IMG/VR virus record: IMGVR_UViG_3300035682_001576
Coordinates: 1-53,693 of that record
DNA: 53,693 nucleotides
DNA from: a virus
Taxonomy: Duplodnaviria > Caudoviricetes
Direction: 5' to 3' (one strand)
In this document: positions 5,732 to 34,734 of the stretch, in pieces
Layout: the number at the start of each line of letters is the position of its first letter
How positions within the stretch are numbered: position 1 is the stretch's first letter
Position numbers and translations under genes: made by a program
The notes under the pieces: model-generated
Databases searched by the model: none
What the model was told of the DNA's origin: nothing
What the model saw: the letters and a program-made list of their open reading frames with translations, nothing else

Positions 5732-5881
5732 ACATCTATTATAGGGTATATCTGATATAATGTCTACTAAAATCTTCTTAATGTTGCATAAAAACAACAC
5801 ATTTTATAGCGTTTTTGAGCGTTTTTTTAGCGTTTTTGATACTAGATGACATGAAATCAAAACAAATGGCTTAGGGAGCGG

Positions 5882-6106
5882 CTAAACCAGTCTGATAATC
5901 AAACCATGAGCGTAAATTAACATCATAACCACATTGACCGCTAAGATACTATACTCACGAATTCTTAGTGACCAAATGATCCAAAATACACTTCCAGCGT
6001 TTAGCAAATATATATTAAGTGGGTCAATTTTATAGCTAATAGCTAACGCTCCCAAGATGGTTAAAATCGTGGCAGTCCATTTTAAAAAGTTGTTTAATTT
6101 TATCAT
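5882..6106 (-). CDS. Small multi-TM membrane protein
   Basis: Three hydrophobic segments; ATG 6 nt after a TTGACA-N17-TATAAT promoter (6113-6141). Confidence 0.7.
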   Translation of the reverse strand: MIKLNNFLKWTATILTILGALAISYKIDPLNIYLLNAGSVFWIIWSLRIREYSILAVNVVMMLIYAHGLIIRLV

Positions 6107-6222
6107 AGACTGATTATATTATAAACTAGATTTATTGTCAAGTAAATTTAAGTGACAATATATTATAGTTATTTTTTATATCACTATCATAAGTAAATAA
6201 TAGTTCATTGATAAATAAAAAT

Positions 6223-7823: not shown

Positions 7824-8390
7824 TTAATTGTCTTCTAAATTATCTACTACAATCCAACCTAGTTTTAGTAAATCTTTTCTAATCTCGTCAGTAACTACAC
7901 TTTCTGGAACATACTCACGCTTATCTTCATCTAGTTCAGGTATATATCCATCTAAACCGTAACCATCTTCTTGACTACCAATGCCGCTACAGTACCAATC
8001 AATGTAATCACCCTCTTGTCTCATATTGGAAATGATTCCACCAGCACTACGCCAACTGGCTGACCAATAATTTTCTTTTAAGATTTGAATTACATCTTCT
8101 TTTATAAAATCATTATTACATATTGCGGCATAAAGATTTTGGGCATAGTTATCGCTATTTCTAACTTTTTTTAGAATCCAATCTGTGGTTCTTAAATCCC
8201 ATTCCATGTTATTCTTTTTCCAAGTTGGATCAGATTCATGTTCAAGATCAAGTTTATCCCAACTTTCATACCAATCTATCATACTTTTTACCGTTGGATC
8301 AGTCATACTTTTCCCTTTCTCTATAGCACGTTTAATATAATTATTTTTTTGAAATGTATTTCTGTTTGGACTTTTGCTAAGTTTAGTCAT
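7824..8390 (-). CDS. Conserved phage hypothetical protein
   Basis: ORF track; YAQNLYAAxCNN...WRSAGGIxxxxRxEGDYIDWYCSG. Confidence 0.75.
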   Translation of the reverse strand: MTKLSKSPNRNTFQKNNYIKRAIEKGKSMTDPTVKSMIDWYESWDKLDLEHESDPTWKKNNMEWDLRTTDWILKKVRNSDNYAQNLYAAICNNDFIKEDVIQILKENYWSASWRSAGGIISNMRQEGDYIDWYCSGIGSQEDGYGLDGYIPELDEDKREYVPESVVTDEIRKDLLKLGWIVVDNLEDN

Positions 8391-16369: not shown

Positions 16370-16450
16370 TGGCTCCGCGATTAGGAATCGAACCTAACTA
16401 GCTTTCGCACAGATTAACAGTCTGCTGCCACACCTTGCGGCTCTCACGGA
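16370..16450 (-). tRNA. tRNA-Asn(GUU) with enlarged variable loop
   Basis: Loop CTGTTAA, variable region GCGAAAGCTAG, GCCA end. Confidence 0.8.
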
Positions 16451-19827: not shown

Positions 19828-19922
19828 TGGTAGTAGCGTAGAGATTCGAACTCTACCGTTGCAGCCCATCTGACCACTCTCCAGGACTTATAAGATCCCG
19901 CCGCACACCAGTGCTCGCTACC
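19828..19922 (-). tRNA. Non-canonical tRNA(UAU) with long variable arm and tetraloop D-arm
   Basis: Acceptor GGTAGCG/CGCTACT-ACCA; D-arm GCAC-TGGT-GTGC; loop CTTATAA; about 25-nt variable region; T-loop TTCGAAT. Confidence 0.75.
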
Positions 19923-19927
19923 ATTAA

Positions 19928-20317
19928 TTATTTAATTTTTGCAAAATTGACACTTTCAGAATAGTATCCGTTACTTTCACCTAACCAGCGAATGTCAACG
20001 TAACCTTTTCTAGTTGCCAATTTATAAAAAGTCCATGTGTAAGATTCTGCATATTTGTCTTCAGTCCAACCCTCAGGATTTTCACCCGATACTTCTTCTG
20101 CCAACAAAATTTCAGAATCTAACAAATCATCTAAATCACCAACAATAGATTCAACATATACATTTTCACAACAATCTTGTGAATGATACATTAAATACGA
20201 ACTACCATCTGATGTTTCAATAGAGATAGTGTCATCTGTTTGTGTTACTTTTGTGATTACTTGACCTTTTAGTGTTTCAAATGCTACTTGTTTGTTCCAT
20301 AAATCCCATAAATTCAT
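19928..20317 (-). CDS. Conserved phage hypothetical protein
   Basis: YHxQDCCExV...W.FYKL.T.KG.V.IRW.GESNGYYSE. Confidence 0.8.
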   Translation of the reverse strand: MNLWDLWNKQVAFETLKGQVITKVTQTDDTISIETSDGSSYLMYHSQDCCENVYVESIVGDLDDLLDSEILLAEEVSGENPEGWTEDKYAESYTWTFYKLATRKGYVDIRWLGESNGYYSESVNFAKIK

Positions 20318-20433: not shown

Positions 20434-20518
20434 TGGTGGAGATTACTGGGATCGAACCAGTCGTGCGCAAGCGCGGCGGATTTACAGTCCACTGCATCAC
20501 CATTGATGCTTCATCTCC
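20434..20518 (-). tRNA. tRNA-Tyr(GUA)
   Basis: Loop CTGTAAA, long variable arm. Confidence 0.92.
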
Positions 20519-22202: not shown

Positions 22203-22766
22203 AGTAGTATCTCCTATTATTATTTAGTCATGTAACAATCACATAGACTTAATTAGTAATGTGATATACCATATTGAAACACACTTATCAGCGAATGAAA
22301 CGACTTACGATAAATGTACTTCAATATGGTTCCGAGATTTCGATCCAGTCACGGTTCTTCAGCCTCAGATTCACAACCACTGAGAGACCACTGTATTGCA
22401 CGATGACTAGTCGGCCACGATGGTAGTCCTGTATTGTTGTTACTTACCATATTGAAATACACTTACACTCCCTACGCATCCGACAACAATGCCACGCATC
22501 CAAGGCAAAATGTACTTCAATATGGCGTCTTATCGTCTGATCCTGTGGCAGCTGGTCAAAGCGACACATTCACCTATTGTAGACTTCTAGCGACTCTGTT
22601 TGGGGTCCACTGTGACTAGCAGCGACCTCCCGCCCGATCTACTATACTAACCATATTGAAACACTCTGTCATTTCAGACTATACACCCTTGCCAGATGTC
22701 AACCATAATAGGTTCCTGTCAATTCAGGTACTGTAAAACTTCTTTCATAAAGTTTTGTGCTTCAAT

Positions 22767-22868
22767 ATGGCATATCCAATAACACTCGGAATTGAACCGA
22801 AAAGACCGTAGTACAGTCTGCGACCACGCTAAATTGTTGCAACAACCTTTGTGTTAATGTGTTGATAG
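22767..22868 (-). ncRNA. tRNA-mimic RNA (extra hairpin, D-like arm, arm, T-arm)
   Basis: TAACAC/GTGTTA stem, GCG-TGGT-CGC, AGACTG/CGGTCT, TCGG-TTCAATT-CCGA; ends GCCA. Confidence 0.55.
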
Positions 22869-23051
22869 TGTCCGAGATTCCGAGCCTCGATGTACCACTT
22901 CGTGTCAGTCCCATATATGACCCACTAACAACTGATATAACCATATTGAAATACACTCTACAGGAATCGAACCTGTCAACATTGATCCATTACGGGGCAA
23001 TGCTATGTCCACCACTCAGCGTGCGCTACGCCTTGAATGTACTTCAATATG

Positions 23052-23318
23052 ATTGCTCATATCGATCTTAACGATCTCCCACTGCTTACAACTGCTTCCC
23101 AATTTCCCGTCAATCTGCACCTGTGGTCAGGCAAAGATCCTCATCGGCCCAATTTTCTAGAATTGGTGATCCTTGGGAAAGGACTGTATGGCCTAAACCT
23201 GCCATACCTCAGGCTATTAAATTTCTGGCCGGTGTTTCACGAGGTTATCTACCGGCCCCACCTCGACTTTACGGCGATTTTTCAGTCACGTGCCTTACTG
23301 GTCGCTATCTTATGTACT
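23052..23318 (-). ncRNA. Putative pseudoknotted ncRNA
   Basis: H-type pseudoknot at 23227-23265 (CGAGGT/ACCTCG interleaved with GGCCGGT/ACCGGCC) plus several hairpins. Confidence 0.55.
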
Positions 23319-23402
23319 TGGTGTGTGATGTAGGGATCGAACCTACCCGCCCTAAGGCCACTGGGTTACAACCAGCTAGAACGCCATTGTTCCATACCAC
23401 AC
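23319..23402 (-). tRNA. tRNA-Tyr(GUA), second divergent copy
   Basis: Loop TTGTAAC, variable arm GCC-TTAG-GGC, CCA. Confidence 0.8.
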
Positions 23403-23415
23403 ATTAAACTTTTAC

Positions 23416-23490
23416 TGGGGTGACTACTGAGTACCGACCTCAGGCTAACTCCTTCACAGGGAGGGGTGCTTCCATTACACTATAGCCACC
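23416..23490 (-). tRNA. tRNA-His(GUG) with atypical T-loop
   Basis: G-1/C73, loop CTGTGAA, T-loop GTCGGTA. Confidence 0.8.
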
Positions 23491-23705
23491 ATTGTTATTA
23501 GTTGTATTGTTTCGTTATAGACAACAATAACCCTATTGTCGTTTGCTTTTATCGCCCAAACATTATACAAGGACACTGGCCAGTGTTGATCTTGATTTCG
23601 TTTGGCACAACTGTATATTCGATGCCTGCAGGACAGAGCGAAAATCGCCAGTGCATTAATCTGGTGAACACAGATTTTTTCCAAAACAATACAACTAATA
23701 ACAAT
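23491..23705 (-). ncRNA. Putative ncRNA closed by a perfect 22-bp stem
   Basis: ATTGTTATTAGTTGTATTGTTT (23491-23512) is the exact reverse complement of 23684-23705. Confidence 0.55.
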
Positions 23706-23706
23706 A

Positions 23707-23950
23707 AGTGCTTTCTCCCTGCGGCGGTAACTATAGCATAGAGAAGTTGACTAACTATGCCTTCCATCCGCTCCCACAGGGAGAACTCTCGTGTTGCAAA
23801 CGCCGGTTAGGTTAGACCGCAGCTTTCGCTGAAGCAGATTCTTCACCCTTTGTTACCAAAGGCAGACCCTTGCTTGAACCACCCGTAGCCATCACAGCTA
23901 CTTCATCGTCTGGGCTCAGACTAGGCGCTGATTAGGCACCGTGCTCGTTA
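23707..23950 (-). ncRNA. Putative large GC-rich structured ncRNA
   Basis: 12-bp TTCTCCCTGTGG/CCGCAGGGAGAA helix, CAGC-GAAA-GCTG, GTAGC/GCTAC, CCTTT/AAAGG and GCATAG/CTATGC hairpins. Confidence 0.6.
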
Positions 23951-24098
23951 CTACATCATTATAAAACACATTACAGCTTGTGGCCTTTCTACCATAATAC
24001 TCGGTTCGGCAATGTGTTTTATAATGAAGACTTCAGTAGTGTCTCCCGACAGGACTACGTTTCCCAACGTAAAGAAGTCAACGTACTTCTATTGTGAT

Positions 24099-24210
24099 TT
24101 ACACAATATTTTTATGTCTTCTGCACCGATCTGTCGAACCCGTATTTCCTCAATACGGTAGAAGAGGTTGCTAGTCTTCTAAAGGGCAAAGACATAAAAA
24201 TATTATGTAA
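24099..24210 (-). ncRNA. Putative ncRNA closed by a ~22-bp stem
   Basis: TTACATAATATTTTTATGTCTT pairs with AAGACATAAAAATATTGTGTAA (one G-U). Confidence 0.5.
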
Positions 24211-24340
24211 CACAATATTGAAATACACTGAATGTAGCGATGATCGTTACCTCGGCTGAACCAGCCACTCTAGAAGTGCTGTAGTTCTCGTTCAGGCTCA
24301 ACTACTAACGGCTTACAATGTACTTCAATATTGCGTCTAA

Positions 24341-24401
24341 TTTTTAAAGAACGATTTACTTACTGAACTTCTATTATAACTGATTACTGATTTATCGTCA
24401 A
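24341..24401 (-). promoter_or_regulatory. sigma70 promoter (TTGACG-N17-TATAAT) plus boxA-like CGTTCTTTAAAAA
   Basis: -35 at 24396-24401, -10 at 24373-24378, boxA-like at 24341-24353. Confidence 0.75.
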
Positions 24402-24701
24402 GTCTTTTTTTTATATTCTACACAATATTGAAACATACTTACTAAGGGAGGACAGAAATTCTAGCTCGGCTCGTTTTCCAAGATATCGAAATCATTCTCA
24501 TTACTCTCGCCTGTTATGTCCGCCATATACCGATCCAACCCATACGGAATCCGTGGCTGGCGTTATAGTCCATGTTTCGTATGAGCAACATCTGCGACCA
24601 GACATGGGAATCATACTAACCTAACGGAAGCGATAACCTTAGTGTACTTACACAGGCATGACCCATGTACTCACAAAAATATGCTTCAATATTGCGTCTA
24701 A

Positions 24702-24764
24702 TTTTTAAAGAACGTTTACTACTTACTATACAACTATTATAACTGAATACTGATTTATTGTCAA
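24702..24764 (-). promoter_or_regulatory. sigma70 promoter (TTGACA-N17-TATAAT) plus boxA-like CGTTCTTTAAAAA
   Basis: -35 at 24759-24764, -10 at 24736-24741, boxA-like at 24702-24714; duplicate of the previous leader. Confidence 0.8.
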
Positions 24765-30341: not shown

Positions 30342-30429
30342 TAATTACTCCTTTGATTCAATATAATAATTATACAATAATTATGATTTATTGTCAATTA
30401 TTTATGTGTTGTATTTTTACAACAGTATT

Positions 30430-32268: not shown

Positions 32269-32297
32269 AGTATAACATTGTTAAAATTAAATGTCAA
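32269..32297 (-). promoter_or_regulatory. Internal sigma70 promoter TTGACA-N17-TATACT
   Basis: Read directly upstream of the initiator-like tRNA. Confidence 0.65.
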
Positions 32298-32303
32298 TTG
32301 ATT

Positions 32304-32378
32304 TGGTGCTCTTACACAGAATCGAACTGAGATTTCTGACATACCAAGTCAGTGTTATAACCATTAAACTATAAGAGC
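32304..32378 (-). tRNA. tRNA-Thr(GGU)
   Basis: Loop TTGGTAT. Confidence 0.88.
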
Positions 32379-32385
32379 AAATATT

Positions 32386-32463
32386 TGGCATCCCCCCAAG
32401 GATTTGAACTTGGACCGCTCGGCTCCAGACCGACTACGCTACCAGATTACGCCATACGGAGAT
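32386..32463 (-). tRNA. Atypical or pseudo tRNA (UGG-centred loop with C33)
   Basis: 6-bp acceptor ATCTCC/GGGGAT, loop TCTGGAG, 8-nt T-loop, GCCA end. Confidence 0.5.
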
Positions 32464-32470
32464 AAAAACT

Positions 32471-32559
32471 TGGTGGACGAAGGTAGGACTCGAACCTACT
32501 ACAAAGCTACGAAGGCAGCATAACTCATGCTACGAGCCGTTTCCTAACGGCGTTCGCCC
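32471..32559 (-). ncRNA. tRNA-like RNA with G3-U70/A73 (Ala identity) and no canonical anticodon loop
   Basis: GGGCGAA/TTCGTCC-ACCA; 6-bp D-stem GCCGTT-AGGA-AACGGC; arm GTAGCAT-GAGTT-ATGCTGC; T-arm GTAGG-TTCGAGT-CCTAC. Confidence 0.7.
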
Positions 32560-32567
32560 ATAAAACT

Positions 32568-32642
32568 TGGTACTGCATACGGGTTACGATCCCGTCTGGT
32601 CACCTTGAAAGGGTGATGACCTCACCAGAAGTCCAATGCAGC
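32568..32642 (-). tRNA. tRNA-Glu(UUC), second copy with atypical T-loop
   Basis: Loop CTTTCAA; T-loop ATCGTAA. Confidence 0.82.
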
Positions 32643-32724
32643 ATTGATCTGTGCCTTACTCCTTAAGTCACTTCCACTACTTTTATAAGTAGGGCGAGTT
32701 AGGCTAATCCATTATGGGCGAATT

Positions 32725-32801
32725 TGGCAGGGATAGTTGGATTCGAACCAACGATACTGATTTCAAAGACCAGTGCCTTAGACCAACTAGGCGATATCCC
32801 A
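32725..32801 (-). tRNA. tRNA-Gln(UUG)
   Basis: Loop CTTTGAA, GCCA. Confidence 0.9.
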
Positions 32802-32806
32802 ACAAA

Positions 32807-33313
32807 CTATAAAATATCTTTCCATCTGATTACTAACGATTCGTTGTAAACAGACCTCTTACCTTTTCTTGCATTTTCTCTACGAGGAAGATATTGTAAA
32901 TTGTCTTGATGATGTAATCCACCGTTGGCTAATGCAACAATATGATCAACTTGATAACCATCAGGAGTTGACTCGTATATTAATTTAATCAATACTAAAT
33001 CTGCATCTGGAGATATAGCGTTTTTCTTTTTTGCTCTGTAAGCATTAACTTTTGCCTTGTTCCCAGATTTCTTATGCTCTTCGGATACTCTTCCTCTTAG
33101 ATCCCAATATAATTTTTTCTTTTCTGATAACATGTCTAAGACATCTTGTTGAAAGGTTTTTCCTTTGAACCCGCTAACTTTACCTTTGTTGGCAATACTT
33201 TTTTTAAGTTTACTATCTTCTGTAAATTTTCTACTATTAGCACATGATCTTGAACAAAATTTCCCAGATCCAAAAGATCCATCGTGATCTACATTGCATT
33301 TAATACATAACAT
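32807..33313 (-). CDS. HNH endonuclease
   Basis: YQVDHIVA..GG.HH..NLQYL...EN.RK; N-terminal KFCSRSCANSR. Confidence 0.85.
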   Translation of the reverse strand: MLCIKCNVDHDGSFGSGKFCSRSCANSRKFTEDSKLKKSIANKGKVSGFKGKTFQQDVLDMLSEKKKLYWDLRGRVSEEHKKSGNKAKVNAYRAKKKNAISPDADLVLIKLIYESTPDGYQVDHIVALANGGLHHQDNLQYLPRRENARKGKRSVYNESLVIRWKDIL

Positions 33314-33368
33314 AAGTTATTCTCCCAACTGTATTTATACAATCGAACCTACGTTATAAATTACTTTT

Positions 33369-33446
33369 TGGCTGTCCGGTTTGGAATCGAACCAAACTTT
33401 ATACTGATTAACAGTCAGTCGCATACACCTTGCTTGCTCCCGGACA
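33369..33446 (-). tRNA. tRNA-Asn(GUU)
   Basis: Loop CTGTTAA, GCCA. Confidence 0.85.
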
Positions 33447-33453
33447 ATAAATT

Positions 33454-33528
33454 TGGTGGACCGTAAGGGAATCGAACCCTTGCCTCATGCTTGCAAAGCA
33501 CATGTGCTACCATTATCACTAACAGCCC
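33454..33528 (-). tRNA. tRNA-Ala(UGC)
   Basis: Loop TTTGCAA, G3-U70. Confidence 0.92.
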
Positions 33529-33534
33529 ATATTA

Positions 33535-33617
33535 ACAATTTATTGAACACACTATACAATTAAACCGTTGCAATGCCATTGCTGATTCAGGTTCGTGTAA
33601 TGCGCTCAATAAATTGT
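33535..33617 (-). repeat. Stem-bracketed cassette, divergent covarying copy
   Basis: ACAATTTATTGAGCGCATT ... AGTGTGTTCAATAAATTGT. Confidence 0.7.
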
Positions 33618-33747
33618 AGTGGCTGTCCCACTACTGTCCATCTTACTTTTGCCGTTACCGCCAGCAATTTCAACTCCGGAACCCCGCCCATTTAGTGTTT
33701 TATTATAGTGATTCACACGGCTCTCGTTGCCTACATTCACTTACTAC

Positions 33748-33782
33748 AAAAACAAAAAACCTCAGACTTTTGATCTGAGGTT
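33748..33782 (-). terminator. Intrinsic terminator (attenuator)
   Basis: AACCTCAGA-TCAAAAG-TCTGAGGTT followed by TTTTGTTTTT. Confidence 0.85.
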
Positions 33783-33810
33783 CTTAGAATTTTGGTGTTA
33801 GATTATCAAA

Positions 33811-34005
33811 TTACGATACACTACACCCTTCTAGAACCTCAGTACTGCCGCGATCTTTCCCACAAATTTCTGTGGCCGGATTACTGGCTGTATTCTGATT
33901 ATGTTGTTCTGATGCCAATACATAAAAACTGGGCCAATAACCTTCCGCGGATGTTCTAAACATCTCTAAAGTTGGTATTGAGCGAATGAGTTTTGTATTC
34001 ATCAT
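33811..34005 (-). CDS. Putative attenuator leader peptide (64 aa, all 20 amino acids)
   Basis: Leaderless start 6 nt after TATAAT; its last codons carry the antiterminator strand CTGAGGTTCTAGAA. Confidence 0.75.
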   Translation of the reverse strand: MMNTKLIRSIPTLEMFRTSAEGYWPSFYVLASEQHNQNTASNPATEICGKDRGSTEVLEGCSVS

Positions 34006-34011
34006 GTTAGT

Positions 34012-34040
34012 ATTATATAGTAAGTTAAATTAATTGTCAA
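34012..34040 (-). promoter_or_regulatory. sigma70 promoter TTGACA-N17-TATAAT at the head of the tRNA array
   Basis: -35 at 34035-34040, -10 at 34012-34017. Confidence 0.85.
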
Positions 34041-34215
34041 GCTATTTTTACTTCTTTGTATAGTTATTTATCCAATCGACAAAATAACTGTATATTATGT
34101 ACATATTTAGCTTGTTTTATCATATCTAAAAAATTATCAGACTTATTCATATCGTACCAATATAAAAATAGCAATGGCTACGATTAGAATAACAAAATCA
34201 AAAACAGTAAACATA

Positions 34216-34734
34216 TTATTTTTGTTCAAATTCAACTAGTGTAAATGACCCACCAGTTTCAGCAATCTTTAATGAAAATTCTGCCAACATACCCATGATC
34301 TTAACTTTATTACCACCAGCTAATCCCATACCAATCATAGGAAATCCAAATCTGGATATTGGGTATTCATGTGCCAACTTTTGTAAGATCAGTTTAAAAC
34401 TATCGTACTCAAATACGTCATTGAACACTTGACCGTTTACGCCAGATCCATTGAAGTTGTATTGAGTGTATGCATTAATAATAACAAACGTACTCTCATC
34501 TGAATTGAAACTTGATGGAGGCATGAAACTTGACAAGGCCATAGTGTAGTTTCCAAGCTTGTTGTAGTCGCCCTGTTTCGTAGAAAGATCAGCCATGTAT
34601 GCCTGTGGATATCGTTCACGAATCTCACGTGCAATACCACTACCCATTGTACAGTGACAATTACAACCTTGTACGATAATATCAAACTCGCCGGCTTCCG
34701 CCATATCAATTAAATTGCCTTTTACTATATTCAT
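34216..34734 (-). CDS. Macrodomain protein (ADP-ribose binding/hydrolase, T4 Tk.4-like)
   Basis: KGNLI, QGCNC..TMGSGIA, NAYTQ, FPMIGMGLAGG. Confidence 0.88.
   Translation of the reverse strand: MNIVKGNLIDMAEAGEFDIIVQGCNCHCTMGSGIAREIRERYPQAYMADLSTKQGDYNKLGNYTMALSSFMPPSSFNSDESTFVIINAYTQYNFNGSGVNGQVFNDVFEYDSFKLILQKLAHEYPISRFGFPMIGMGLAGGNKVKIMGMLAEFSLKIAETGGSFTLVEFEQK

What the first reader, a model, noticed from the sequence alone, without database searches (positions are those of the whole stretch)
33748..34040. Candidate pan-tRNA-depletion attenuator: an all-20-amino-acid leader peptide controlling the phage tRNA array
Seen in the sequence: a perfect TTGACA-N17-TATAAT promoter puts +1 on or next to the ATG of a 64-codon ORF. 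By manual count the ORF uses all 20 amino acids and 38 different sense codons. Its four Leu codons are all different (CTC, TTA, TTG, CTA), its three Pro codons are all different, and it uses GC-rich codons (CGC, GCG, CCC, CCG, GGG, TCG) that are unusual in this AT-rich genome. Its last codons (CTGAGGTTCTAGAA-G-GGTGTAG-..TATCG) can pair with the downstream TGATA..CTAACACC..TTCTAAGAACCTCAG, forming a long hairpin with the TAA stop in the apical loop. That hairpin sequesters the 5' strand of the terminator AACCTCAGA/TCTGAGGTT-T-tract, so the two folds are mutually exclusive. Directly downstream starts a tRNA set covering all 20 amino acids. Established knowledge: trp/his-type attenuators use this logic but sense one amino acid through codon runs. 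Inference: a ribosome that finishes the peptide blocks the antiterminator and transcription stops. A stall at any codon (tRNA cleaved by a host anticodon nuclease, starvation, ribosome damage) frees the antiterminator and switches on replacement tRNAs. This would be a general translation-integrity sensor; I know of no description of one in phages. Caveat: internal promoters at 32269-32297 and 30369-30397 mean it may govern only the first block.
Basis: partly seen in the sequence, partly recalled or inferred. Interest (0 to 1): 0.93.

Follow-up and report, generated by a model that had tools for sequence, protein, structure and literature searches.

The report
Translation-sensing switch before phage tRNA genes
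In an uncultured freshwater phage, a small conserved reading frame ends inside an RNA hairpin that competes with a transcription stop signal just ahead of a block of tRNA genes, a layout that could raise tRNA output when protein synthesis falters, though nothing has been tested at the bench.

Summary
A 12/12 sigma-70 promoter (34040..34012) puts +1 on the ATG of a 64-codon ORF (34005..33811). The ORF's last 10 codons form the 5' arm of a long hairpin with the stop codon in its loop. The hairpin's 3' arm is also the 5' arm of the strongest intrinsic terminator in the window (33785..33755). The two folds are nearly equal in energy (-31.0 vs -29.1 kcal/mol).

Only this terminator, 1 of 11, has such a competitor. 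A relative about 12% diverged has 4 differences in 114 nt of the switch against 41 in 265 nt beside it, and all four are structure-neutral.

The ORF is a small protein family (61-74 aa, down to about 44% identity), with relaxed peptide constraint (omega 0.57) and no predicted fold. All 29 known members keep all 20 amino acids, with a single His that changes position. A tree-aware simulation gives this in 0.3-1.8% of runs.

Codon diversity is explained by base composition alone. Internal promoters limit any control to five tRNA genes.

Verdict: a probable ribosome-dependent attenuator. The "pan-tRNA sensor" reading is possible but unproven.

The parts
34012..34040 (-). Sigma-70-type promoter, TTGACA-17-TATAAT
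   Evidence: A 12 of 12 match. It is kept in L001 and L021-L023. The diverged relative has TTGACA-17-TACAAT.
33811..34005 (-). 64-codon leader ORF. Its ATG is at the predicted +1, with no Shine-Dalgarno sequence.
   Evidence: Homologs of 61-74 aa appear. The ORF is open in the nucleotide-found relative. Omega is 0.57.
33775..33842 (-). Long hairpin (antiterminator). The 5' arm is codons 55-64, the TAA stop (33811-33813) lies in the apical loop, and the 3' arm ends in AACCTCAG.
   Evidence: It is the minimum-energy fold, and -29.4 kcal/mol on its own. The last 12 codons show 0 changes against the diverged relative.
33745..33785 (-). Intrinsic terminator: 13-pair stem, 5-nt loop, T6-G-T5 tract. 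Its 5' arm is shared with the long hairpin.
   Evidence: It is -15.8 kcal/mol alone, and it forms when the RNA is masked through the stop codon.
33529..33744 (-). Conserved, structured spacer that read-through transcripts would carry. About 60 invariant bases are followed by three hairpins (about 33680-33637, 33634-33616 and 33615-33537).
   Evidence: Alignment. Of 45 predicted pairs, 12 have two-sided changes.
32304..33528 (-). First tRNA block: Ala-TGC, Asn-GTT, an HNH endonuclease ORF (32807-33313), Gln-TTG, Glu-TTC and Thr-GGT. The next strong promoter lies at 32297..32269.

Best explanation
This is a ribosome-dependent transcription attenuator at the head of the phage's tRNA region.

Proposed mechanism:
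1. Host RNA polymerase starts at the A of the ATG, giving a leaderless mRNA.
2. If a ribosome translates the 64-codon frame and keeps pace with the polymerase, it occupies codons 55-64 and the stop codon. These are the 5' arm and the loop of the long hairpin.
3. The shared middle arm is then free to pair with the downstream arm. The terminator forms and a roughly 250-nt transcript is released.
4. If no ribosome is loaded, or the ribosome lags or stalls anywhere in about the first 50 codons, the long hairpin forms first. It sequesters the terminator's 5' arm.
5. Polymerase then reads on through a conserved structured spacer into tRNA-Ala, Asn, Gln, Glu and Thr.

What is shown: the anatomy, its non-randomness, its conservation, and the maintenance of the ORF. 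What is inferred: the start site, translation itself, the direction of the switch, and what is sensed. The most likely signal is overall elongation progress, including tRNA supply.
For: Anatomy and energetics:
- The promoter is a 12/12 match and the ATG lies 6 nt after the -10.
- The antiterminator state is -31.0 kcal/mol and the terminator state -29.1. Masking the RNA through the stop codon gives the terminator.
- The competitor pairing is reached by 0 of 2000 shuffles. Only 1 of 11 terminators in the window has one.

Conservation in the roughly 88%-identical relative seen in run X1:
- It has 4 differences in 114 nt of the switch against 41 in 265 nt beside it (Fisher p 0.0005).
- The four are a G-C to G-U change, a loop base, the closing G.U pair of the apical stem, and one A dropped from an internal loop (read).
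- The last 12 codons have 0 changes where about 6 were expected.
- G60R (GGG to AGG, at the bulged base) recurs in L023, P0007, P0018, P0021 and P0023.

The ORF:
- It is open, with the same start and stop, in all 29 sequences, and indels are in frame.
- Omega is 0.57, against 0.05 for the neighbouring macro-domain gene.
- AlphaFold2 gives pLDDT 49.8 and no secondary structure.
- All 29 of 29 members hold 20 amino-acid kinds and one His, at three or more alignment columns. Simulations reach this in 17 of 4000, 8 of 3000 and 53 of 3000 runs.
- The ORF's codons call on 28 of the phage's 29 anticodon kinds. Only 71 of 8868 windows do as well.

Context:
- The spacer after the terminator covaries (12 of 45 pairs), so it is transcribed from upstream.
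- A second promoter-N6-ATG gene at 6141..5882, plainly a membrane protein, shows that leaderless layout is used in this phage.
- A leaderless leader peptide of an attenuator has a precedent (PMC5784534, passages read).
Against: - There is no transcript-end, ribosome or reporter data. The RNA-library contig cannot show transcription.
- DNA of the distant family members (P0002-P0010, P0025, P0026, P0029, P0030) could not be fetched. So conservation of the switch is shown only to about 12% divergence, and there are no two-sided compensatory changes in the switch itself.
- Up to 5 differences of the X1 contig are not listed.
- The motif GYWPSFYVL is kept through synonymous changes, including TTG to CTA. 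Distant members share it too. So the peptide may have a job of its own.
- At 64 codons with no codon runs, the leader is far longer than known leader peptides.
- The window's other promoter-leaderless-ORF-terminator cassette (6141..5867) suggests such units can be ordinary small genes.
- Most tRNA genes have their own strong promoters. A 10/12 promoter-like site (33640..33613) lies between the terminator and tRNA-Ala.
- The high codon diversity is what the base composition gives.
- The simulation null is simple, and the test was run after seeing the property in the window.
Confidence: 0.45

Rival explanations
1. It is an ordinary small early gene: a stand-alone cassette of promoter, leaderless ORF and terminator. 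The peptide has its own function, for example host take-over. The long hairpin merely tunes terminator leakiness constitutively or stabilises the 3' end of the mRNA. Nothing is sensed.
For: - A twin cassette exists at 6141..5867, with promoter-N6-ATG, a 74-aa membrane-like ORF and a terminator.
- The family keeps motifs (GYWPS, NPAT, ICGK) down to 44% identity, and keeps VL by synonymous changes.
- Strong promoters elsewhere feed most tRNA genes.
Against: - The twin cassette and 9 other terminators have no competitor hairpin.
- The switch, not the peptide, is the most conserved part.
- Omega is 0.57 and no fold is predicted.
- The stop codon sits exactly in the loop.
- The spacer after the terminator is a covarying RNA that needs read-through.
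- Retention of all 20 amino-acid kinds is not expected for an ordinary small protein.
Confidence: 0.27
2. It is an attenuator, but one that senses a specific signal. A conserved nascent-peptide motif (TS..GYWPSFYVL) arrests the ribosome in response to a small molecule or cell state, as TnaC or SecM-type arrest peptides do (recalled). The arrest lets the antiterminator form. General tRNA supply is not the signal.
For: - The motif is kept at the amino-acid level through synonymous changes, and is shared with members of 44% identity.
- It lies at codons 18-30, so a ribosome arrested just after it would leave the hairpin's 5' arm (from codon 55) free (geometry read).
Against: - There is no similarity to any known arrest peptide. 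Pfam and PHROGs give nothing.
- It does not explain why every member keeps all 20 amino acids, or the moving His.
Confidence: 0.13
3. It is a non-coding or dual-function structured RNA of about 250 nt, and the ORF is incidental. The long hairpin would be a processing site (for example RNase III) or a stability element of a tRNA-precursor-linked RNA, like the stable RNAs in the T4 tRNA cluster (recalled).
For: - There is no Shine-Dalgarno sequence, and the layout resembles the promoters that drive tRNAs directly.
- The whole transcript folds with z -4.5.
- GC is 41% against 33% for the genome, and GC3 is 33% against 20% in genes.
- Close relatives show 3/3/3 changes at codon positions 1/2/3 (counted by eye).
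Against: - The ORF is open in 29 of 29 sequences, with in-frame indels, down to 44% identity.
- The predicted 5' helix (AAUACA/UGUAUU) loses 3 of 6 pairs without compensation in the diverged relative.
- Rfam gives no match even at E up to 10.
Confidence: 0.1

Closest known systems
Leader-peptide transcription attenuators of amino-acid operons (trpL, hisL, ilvL type)
   Same: A translated leader ORF comes first. An antiterminator hairpin and an intrinsic terminator share one arm. A ribosome that reaches the stop codon favours the terminator, and a stalled one favours read-through. A leaderless leader (ilvB leader of C. diphtheriae) is on record (PMC5784534, passages read).
   Different: The leader has 64 codons rather than about 14-32. 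It has no run of one amino acid's codons and no evident 1:2 pause or anti-antiterminator hairpin, so an untranslated RNA would read through rather than terminate. The genes downstream are tRNAs, not biosynthetic genes. The element is phage-borne.
Translation-stress-sensing leader ORFs (vmlR-type ribosome-mediated attenuation; the toiL uORF of topAI)
   Same: A leader ORF reports general trouble of the ribosome rather than one amino acid, and switches on downstream genes (PMC9226507 and PMC12121999, search-listing abstracts only).
   Different: Those leaders are short. They respond to antibiotics at specific codons and control resistance or toxin-antitoxin genes. toiL works through Rho. Here the leader is long, the output is tRNA genes, and the context is a phage.
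T-box riboswitches
   Same: They are terminator/antiterminator switches that respond to tRNA status (recalled).
   Different: T-boxes bind uncharged tRNA directly and have no ORF. No T-box or other Rfam match was found at E up to 10.
The window's own promoter-N6-ATG cassette at 6141..5867
   Same: It has a 12/12 promoter, an ATG 6 nt after the -10, a small ORF (74 aa), and a terminator at the stop codon.
   Different: It has no competitor hairpin (z -0.4). Its product is clearly hydrophobic and membrane-like. No tRNA genes follow directly.

Membership tests
Classical leader-peptide attenuator (trp/his type) | Mutually exclusive antiterminator and intrinsic terminator sharing an arm | tested here: met
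Classical leader-peptide attenuator (trp/his type) | Short leader ORF with clustered regulatory codons of the cognate amino acid | tested here: not met
   The ORF has 64 codons and all 20 amino acids. The commonest residue, Ser, occurs 8 times and is scattered. The only adjacent repeat is MM at the start.
Classical leader-peptide attenuator (trp/his type) | Stop codon placed so that a terminating ribosome blocks the antiterminator | tested here: met
   The stop lies in the apical loop. Masking through the stop gives the terminator fold.
Classical leader-peptide attenuator (trp/his type) | Read-through responds to translation of the leader | not testable with these tools
   This needs reporters, Term-seq or Ribo-seq.
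Leaderless mRNA | Transcript 5' end at, or within a few bases of, the start codon | not testable with these tools
   It is only predicted from the -10 to ATG spacing of 6 nt, which is conserved in all DNA relatives. The contigs cannot show RNA ends.
Intrinsic (Rho-independent) terminator | G+C-containing stem-loop followed by a U-tract | tested here: met
   13 pairs, a 5-nt loop and a T6GT5 tract. It is the top-ranked terminator-like site in each of the four scans that cover the window.
Known RNA families (Rfam 15, including T-box and leader families) | Covariance-model match | tested here: not met
   At E up to 10, only tRNA-Ala and three chance-level hits were found in 33430-34060.
Known protein families (Pfam-A, PHROGs) | Profile match of the 64-aa product | tested here: not met
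   No families matched in PHROGs or Pfam. The ESM Atlas gave no usable hit.

The most novel reading that the evidence does not exclude
The leader is a whole-decoding-system sensor. It is a long leaderless ORF kept by selection to contain every amino acid (29 of 29 members, with the lone His relocating when lost) and to call on nearly all of the phage's anticodons. A shortage or cleavage of any tRNA, or any slowing of elongation, would then make the lead ribosome lose its race with RNA polymerase and open transcription into replacement tRNA genes. This would be a phage-encoded feedback loop between translation health and tRNA supply.
Probability: 0.2. Interest if true: 0.9.

Novelty: new variant of a known kind. 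Interest (0 to 1): 0.7.

Why it matters
Phage tRNA genes are now seen as counter-measures to host tRNA-cleaving defences and to decay of host translation (PMC10264068, abstract plus a term search; PMC11555353 and PMC11464382, search-listing abstracts only). How their expression is controlled is hardly addressed. PMC10264068 holds none of the words attenuat-, terminator, promoter or leader, and my four paper searches turned up no attenuator in front of phage tRNA genes.

A ribosome-coupled switch at the head of a tRNA array would be the first such control element. If the all-20-amino-acid property is selected, it would also be a new design principle: an attenuator that integrates the whole decoding system rather than one amino acid. 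The element is compact (about 300 nt) and can be tested directly with reporters in laboratory strains.

Tried and rejected
Searches for DNA of more distant relatives, all without useful result:
- Viral contigs gave only one contig, 95% identical.
- Metagenome contigs gave four contigs of 95-100% identity.
- Genome contigs gave none.
- GenBank phages by blastn and tblastn gave only tRNA-Ala and chance hits.
- As a result, the switch could not be tested for compensatory changes in P0002-P0010, P0025, P0026, P0029 or P0030, and their downstream genes are unknown.

Context in relatives: loci holding relatives of the upstream macro-domain gene (18 loci, 48-59% identity) have no tRNA array after it (0 to 1 tRNA each) and no homolog of the ORF. 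They say nothing about the architecture.

Sequencing runs: two runs held small shares. Both are kept as contigs, which cannot show RNA ends, strand or level. The RNA-library contig that crosses both the promoter and the terminator could be DNA carry-over, so I draw no conclusion on expression or read-through from it.

Protein and RNA look-ups:
- The structure prediction had low confidence, so no fold search was made.
- The ESM Atlas, Pfam, PHROGs and Rfam gave nothing.

Rejected ideas:
- The plus-strand 55-aa ORF 33792..33959. It has a TTG start inside the hairpin, no promoter, and all neighbouring genes are on the minus strand.
- A conserved 5' RNA domain pairing the start codon. Three of 6 pairs are broken in the diverged relative.
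- A tRNA-like reading of 33690-33610. Neither ARAGORN nor Rfam calls one.
- Lack of a Shine-Dalgarno sequence as an argument against translation. Only 18 of 49 long minus-strand ORFs have a strict 4-mer SD.

One search timed out and was rerun.

Full report
WHAT IS THERE. The finding lies on the minus strand. Reading 34240 to 33440 gives, in order:
- A TTGACA-17-TATAAT promoter at 34040..34012, a 12 of 12 match.
- Six bases, then ATGATG at 34005.
- A 64-codon ORF ending in TAA at 33813-33811.
- A long imperfect hairpin spanning 33842..33775, with that TAA in its apical loop.
- A 13-pair stem with a T6-G-T5 tract at 33785..33745. This is the top-ranked terminator-like site in each of the four scans that cover the window.

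The 3' arm of the long hairpin and the 5' arm of the terminator are the same bases (AAGAACCTCAG). The 5' arm of the hairpin and the 3' arm of the terminator are therefore a direct repeat (CTGAGGTT). After 226 nt of spacer come tRNA-Ala, tRNA-Asn, an HNH endonuclease ORF, tRNA-Gln, tRNA-Glu and tRNA-Thr. The next strong promoter follows at 32297..32269. Upstream lie rIIA-like, rIIB-like and macro-domain phosphatase genes. The window is the whole assembly held. It is a 33% GC phage contig whose close relatives come from freshwater and marine metagenomes. It has no close relative among GenBank phages.

IS IT MORE THAN CHANCE?
- The 121-nt switch folds at -35.3 kcal/mol, against -21.5 +/- 3.2 for shuffles (z -4.29; 0 of 200 reach it).
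- The terminator's 5' arm pairs with upstream sequence at -19.8 kcal/mol, against -8.4 +/- 2.1 (0 of 2000 shuffles). Two of 1012 genomic segments reach that value. I take them to be the ones that hold the site itself, but I did not check.
- I ran the same test on all 11 minus-strand terminator-like sites of the window. Only this one has a competitor (z -5.7, 0 of 500). The other ten lie between z -1.5 and +0.7.
- The two states are nearly equal in energy. With the full hairpin the RNA is at -31.0 kcal/mol. With the terminator forced and the inner part of the hairpin kept, it is at -29.1. When the RNA is masked from the 5' end through the stop codon, with 0 to 15 further bases, the terminator forms at -19.1.
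- The hairpin's 3' arm is made before the terminator's 3' arm. An untranslated transcript should therefore fold into the hairpin first and read through. That last step is inference.

THE CODON CLAIMS. The manual counts are right: 20 amino-acid kinds, 38 codon kinds, four different Leu codons and three different Pro codons.
- 852 of 8868 (9.6%) 64-codon windows of the phage's own long ORFs hold all 20 amino acids.
- 85 of 8868 (1.0%) hold 38 or more codon kinds. But 1351 of 2000 stop-free shuffles of the ORF's own bases also do. Codon diversity follows from the ORF being 41% GC (GC3 33%) in a genome whose genes have GC3 of 20%.
- The ORF's codons call on 28 of the 29 anticodon kinds I took. One of those 29, a 101-nt "tRNA-Ile TAT", is a doubtful ARAGORN call. 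Only 71 of 8868 windows (0.8%) do as well.
- Relatives score 26 to 29.

IS THE ORF REAL?
- The protein search found six clusters of 61-64 aa at 67-97% identity.
- An exhaustive profile search added two representatives of 68 and 73 aa at about 44% identity.
- Their relatives added two more.
- Cluster look-up gave 24 sequences in all for the first six clusters. Nine of the 24 members of the closest cluster were not listed.
- All sequences start at the same Met-Asn and end at the same place. Indels are whole codons.
- These were found as predicted proteins, so broken copies would have been missed.
- One relative was found by nucleotides instead: a 465-nt contig in run X1, about 88% identical. It also has the ORF open (63 aa), with the same start and stop.

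Between that relative and the window there are 8 synonymous and 18 non-synonymous changes. This gives omega 0.57, which is not distinguishable from 1 (binomial p 0.17). The macro-domain gene next door has omega 0.05 between the window and L001. AlphaFold2 on the 7-row alignment gives pLDDT 49.8, pTM 0.11 and no secondary structure. Pfam, PHROGs and the ESM Atlas give nothing.

One stretch is under peptide-level selection. In the X1 relative, Val29 and Leu30 of the GYWPSFYVL motif are kept by three synonymous changes, including TTG to CTA (read). These changes break 3 of 6 pairs of the 5' helix that the single-sequence fold had proposed. The ORF body is therefore not a conserved RNA structure. 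It is a translated frame with one conserved peptide motif and otherwise loose constraint.

THE SWITCH IS THE MOST CONSERVED PART.
- In the X1 relative there are 3 substitutions and 1 deletion in 33736-33849 (114 nt: hairpin, terminator and the bases just after). There are 41 differences in 33850-34114 (265 nt). Fisher p is 0.0005.
- Caveat: 38 of that contig's 43 substitutions are listed. The other 5 are probably near its ends, but I cannot place them.
- The four differences are as follows. C33795 to U turns a G-C pair into G-U. U33810 to G lies in the apical loop. U33808 to A opens the closing G.U pair of the apical stem. One A is dropped from the AAAA internal loop.
- The last 12 codons have no change where about 6.3 were expected (Poisson p 0.002).
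- In the five close DNA relatives, the only changes in the switch are two bases of the terminator loop and the bulged G of the hairpin.
- That bulge change turns Gly60 into Arg, a radical change for a protein. It recurs in L023, P0007, P0018, P0021 and P0023.
- The promoter, its 17-nt spacing and the ACTAAC-ATGATG junction are kept in all of them. The X1 relative has TACAAT as its -10.

READ-THROUGH MATTERS. The 226-nt spacer is not junk. Its first 60 or so bases are invariant in six sequences. The rest forms three hairpins, with 12 of 45 predicted pairs showing two-sided compensatory changes. One example is TTGCTG/CGGCAA against ACACGG/CCGTGT around an unchanged GCGGTAA loop. No site with 4 or more matches in each hexamer lies between the terminator and the first hairpin. 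So this RNA must be made by polymerases that pass the terminator. A 10/12 site (TGGACA-16-TACAAT, 33640..33613) could feed tRNA-Ala independently, but it lies after the first covarying hairpin.

LEADERLESS LAYOUT. Eleven 12/12 promoters lie on the minus strand.
- Seven have a 25-33-nt leader with a purine-rich Shine-Dalgarno sequence before the ATG.
- One drives a tRNA directly.
- One has no ORF after it.
- Two have the ATG 6 nt after the -10: the candidate, and 6141..6113.

The ORF after 6141..6113 (5882..6106, 74 aa) is plainly a membrane protein and ends at a terminator. This cuts both ways. Leaderless genes seem to be in use here, which makes translation of the candidate credible. But promoter-ORF-terminator cassettes can also be ordinary genes. 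The twin cassette has no antiterminator.

THE ALL-20 PROPERTY IN RELATIVES.
- All 28 database proteins, one of them identical to the window's, and the X1 relative hold all 20 amino acids in 61-74 residues (29 of 29).
- Each has exactly one His. It sits at column 36 in the window's group, at the R52 position in P0002, the P0003 group and the X1 relative (where the column-36 His is substituted in P0002 and its codon deleted in the others), and at position 8 in P0005/P0008.
- I evolved the window's peptide along the maximum-likelihood tree of 19 sequences. Site rates were proportional to observed variability, invariant columns were frozen, and real gaps were imposed. P0029 and P0030 were not in the tree.
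- All 18 other tips kept 20 kinds in 17 of 4000 runs. A repeat gave 8 of 3000. With branch lengths halved it was 53 of 3000. At scale 1 the simulation reproduces the real numbers of differences.
- The null is simple, and a moving His could have other causes. Still, this is more than phylogenetic inertia.

MECHANISM AND ODDS. My best reading (0.45) is a ribosome-dependent attenuator. Full translation brings the ribosome onto the hairpin's 5' arm and stop codon, the terminator forms, and a roughly 250-nt RNA results. A ribosome that is absent, late, or stalled within about the first 50 codons leaves the hairpin intact, and polymerase enters the spacer and five tRNA genes. With 64 mixed codons and no codon run, the natural variable is the ribosome's progress relative to polymerase, which depends on every tRNA used. 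I give the specific "pan-tRNA sensor" version 0.2.

The rivals are:
- An ordinary small gene with a constitutively leaky terminator (0.27).
- An attenuator driven by arrest at the conserved peptide motif (0.13).
- A non-coding or processing element (0.1).

Any control reaches only the first block, because the other blocks have their own 11-12/12 promoters.

COMPARISON AND NOVELTY. It works like a trp/his-type attenuator in its switch and stop-codon geometry. It fails that family's defining features of a short leader with cognate codon runs, and it lacks a 1:2-type hairpin. It resembles translation-stress leaders (vmlR, toiL; listing abstracts only) in sensing the ribosome's state in general. 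A leaderless leader peptide has a precedent (PMC5784534, passages read). Four literature searches and a term search in PMC10264068 found no attenuator before phage tRNA genes. Supplementary files were not consulted. I rate it a new variant of a known kind. It is interesting because it is compact, conserved and directly testable.

Noticed in passing
window 22300-24760 (minus strand): A 2.4-kb stretch of 41-49% GC in a 33% GC genome, with no minus-strand ORF above 72 aa. Two strong promoters (24764..24736, 12/12; 24401..24373, 11/12) have nearly identical downstream text. Rfam finds only tRNAs at its lower end. It may hold unknown structured RNAs upstream of tRNA-His and tRNA-Tyr.
   Followed up: partly
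window 23419-23489 and 20437-20518 (minus strand): A tRNA-His (anticodon GTG) and a second tRNA-Tyr (GTA, long variable arm) are called by Rfam but missed by ARAGORN. Conversely, five ARAGORN calls do not reach Rfam's threshold: 16370-16450, 19828-19928 (101 nt, 'Ile-TAT'), 23319-23402, 32568-32642 and 33369-33446.
   Followed up: partly
window 32807-33313; L001 3398-4024: Homing-endonuclease traffic in the tRNA region. The window has an HNH ORF between tRNA-Asn and tRNA-Gln that L001 lacks. L001 has a 208-aa ORF on the opposite strand, whose N-terminus looks GIY-YIG-like by eye (not tested). It is inserted right after GGGCGG (window about 33684) and replaces about 130 nt of the spacer.
   Followed up: partly
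window 33529-33700 (minus strand): The spacer before tRNA-Ala holds three hairpins with compensatory changes (12 of 45 pairs). One has an unchanged GCGGTAA loop, and a long stem directly abuts the tRNA. They may be processing or protein-binding sites.
   Followed up: partly
window 5867-6141 (minus strand): A second apparently leaderless cassette: a 12/12 promoter, an ATG 6 nt after the -10, a 74-aa membrane-like ORF, and a terminator overlapping its stop codon. The 188-aa ORF at 8390 also starts 8 nt after an 11/12 promoter's -10.
   Followed up: partly
window 3850-39991 (minus strand): Eleven 12/12 sigma-70 promoters, all on the minus strand. Many share an ATAAATC-like start of the spacer, and in several a Shine-Dalgarno leader (several with an ACTGAGAAAAGGA-like sequence) follows the -10. 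This looks like a dense early-promoter array.
   Followed up: no
window 34143-34235; L001 2756-2917: Between the macro-domain gene and the promoter, the window has a 30-aa hydrophobic ORF. L001 instead has a 108-nt insertion with a different 53-aa ORF.
   Followed up: no
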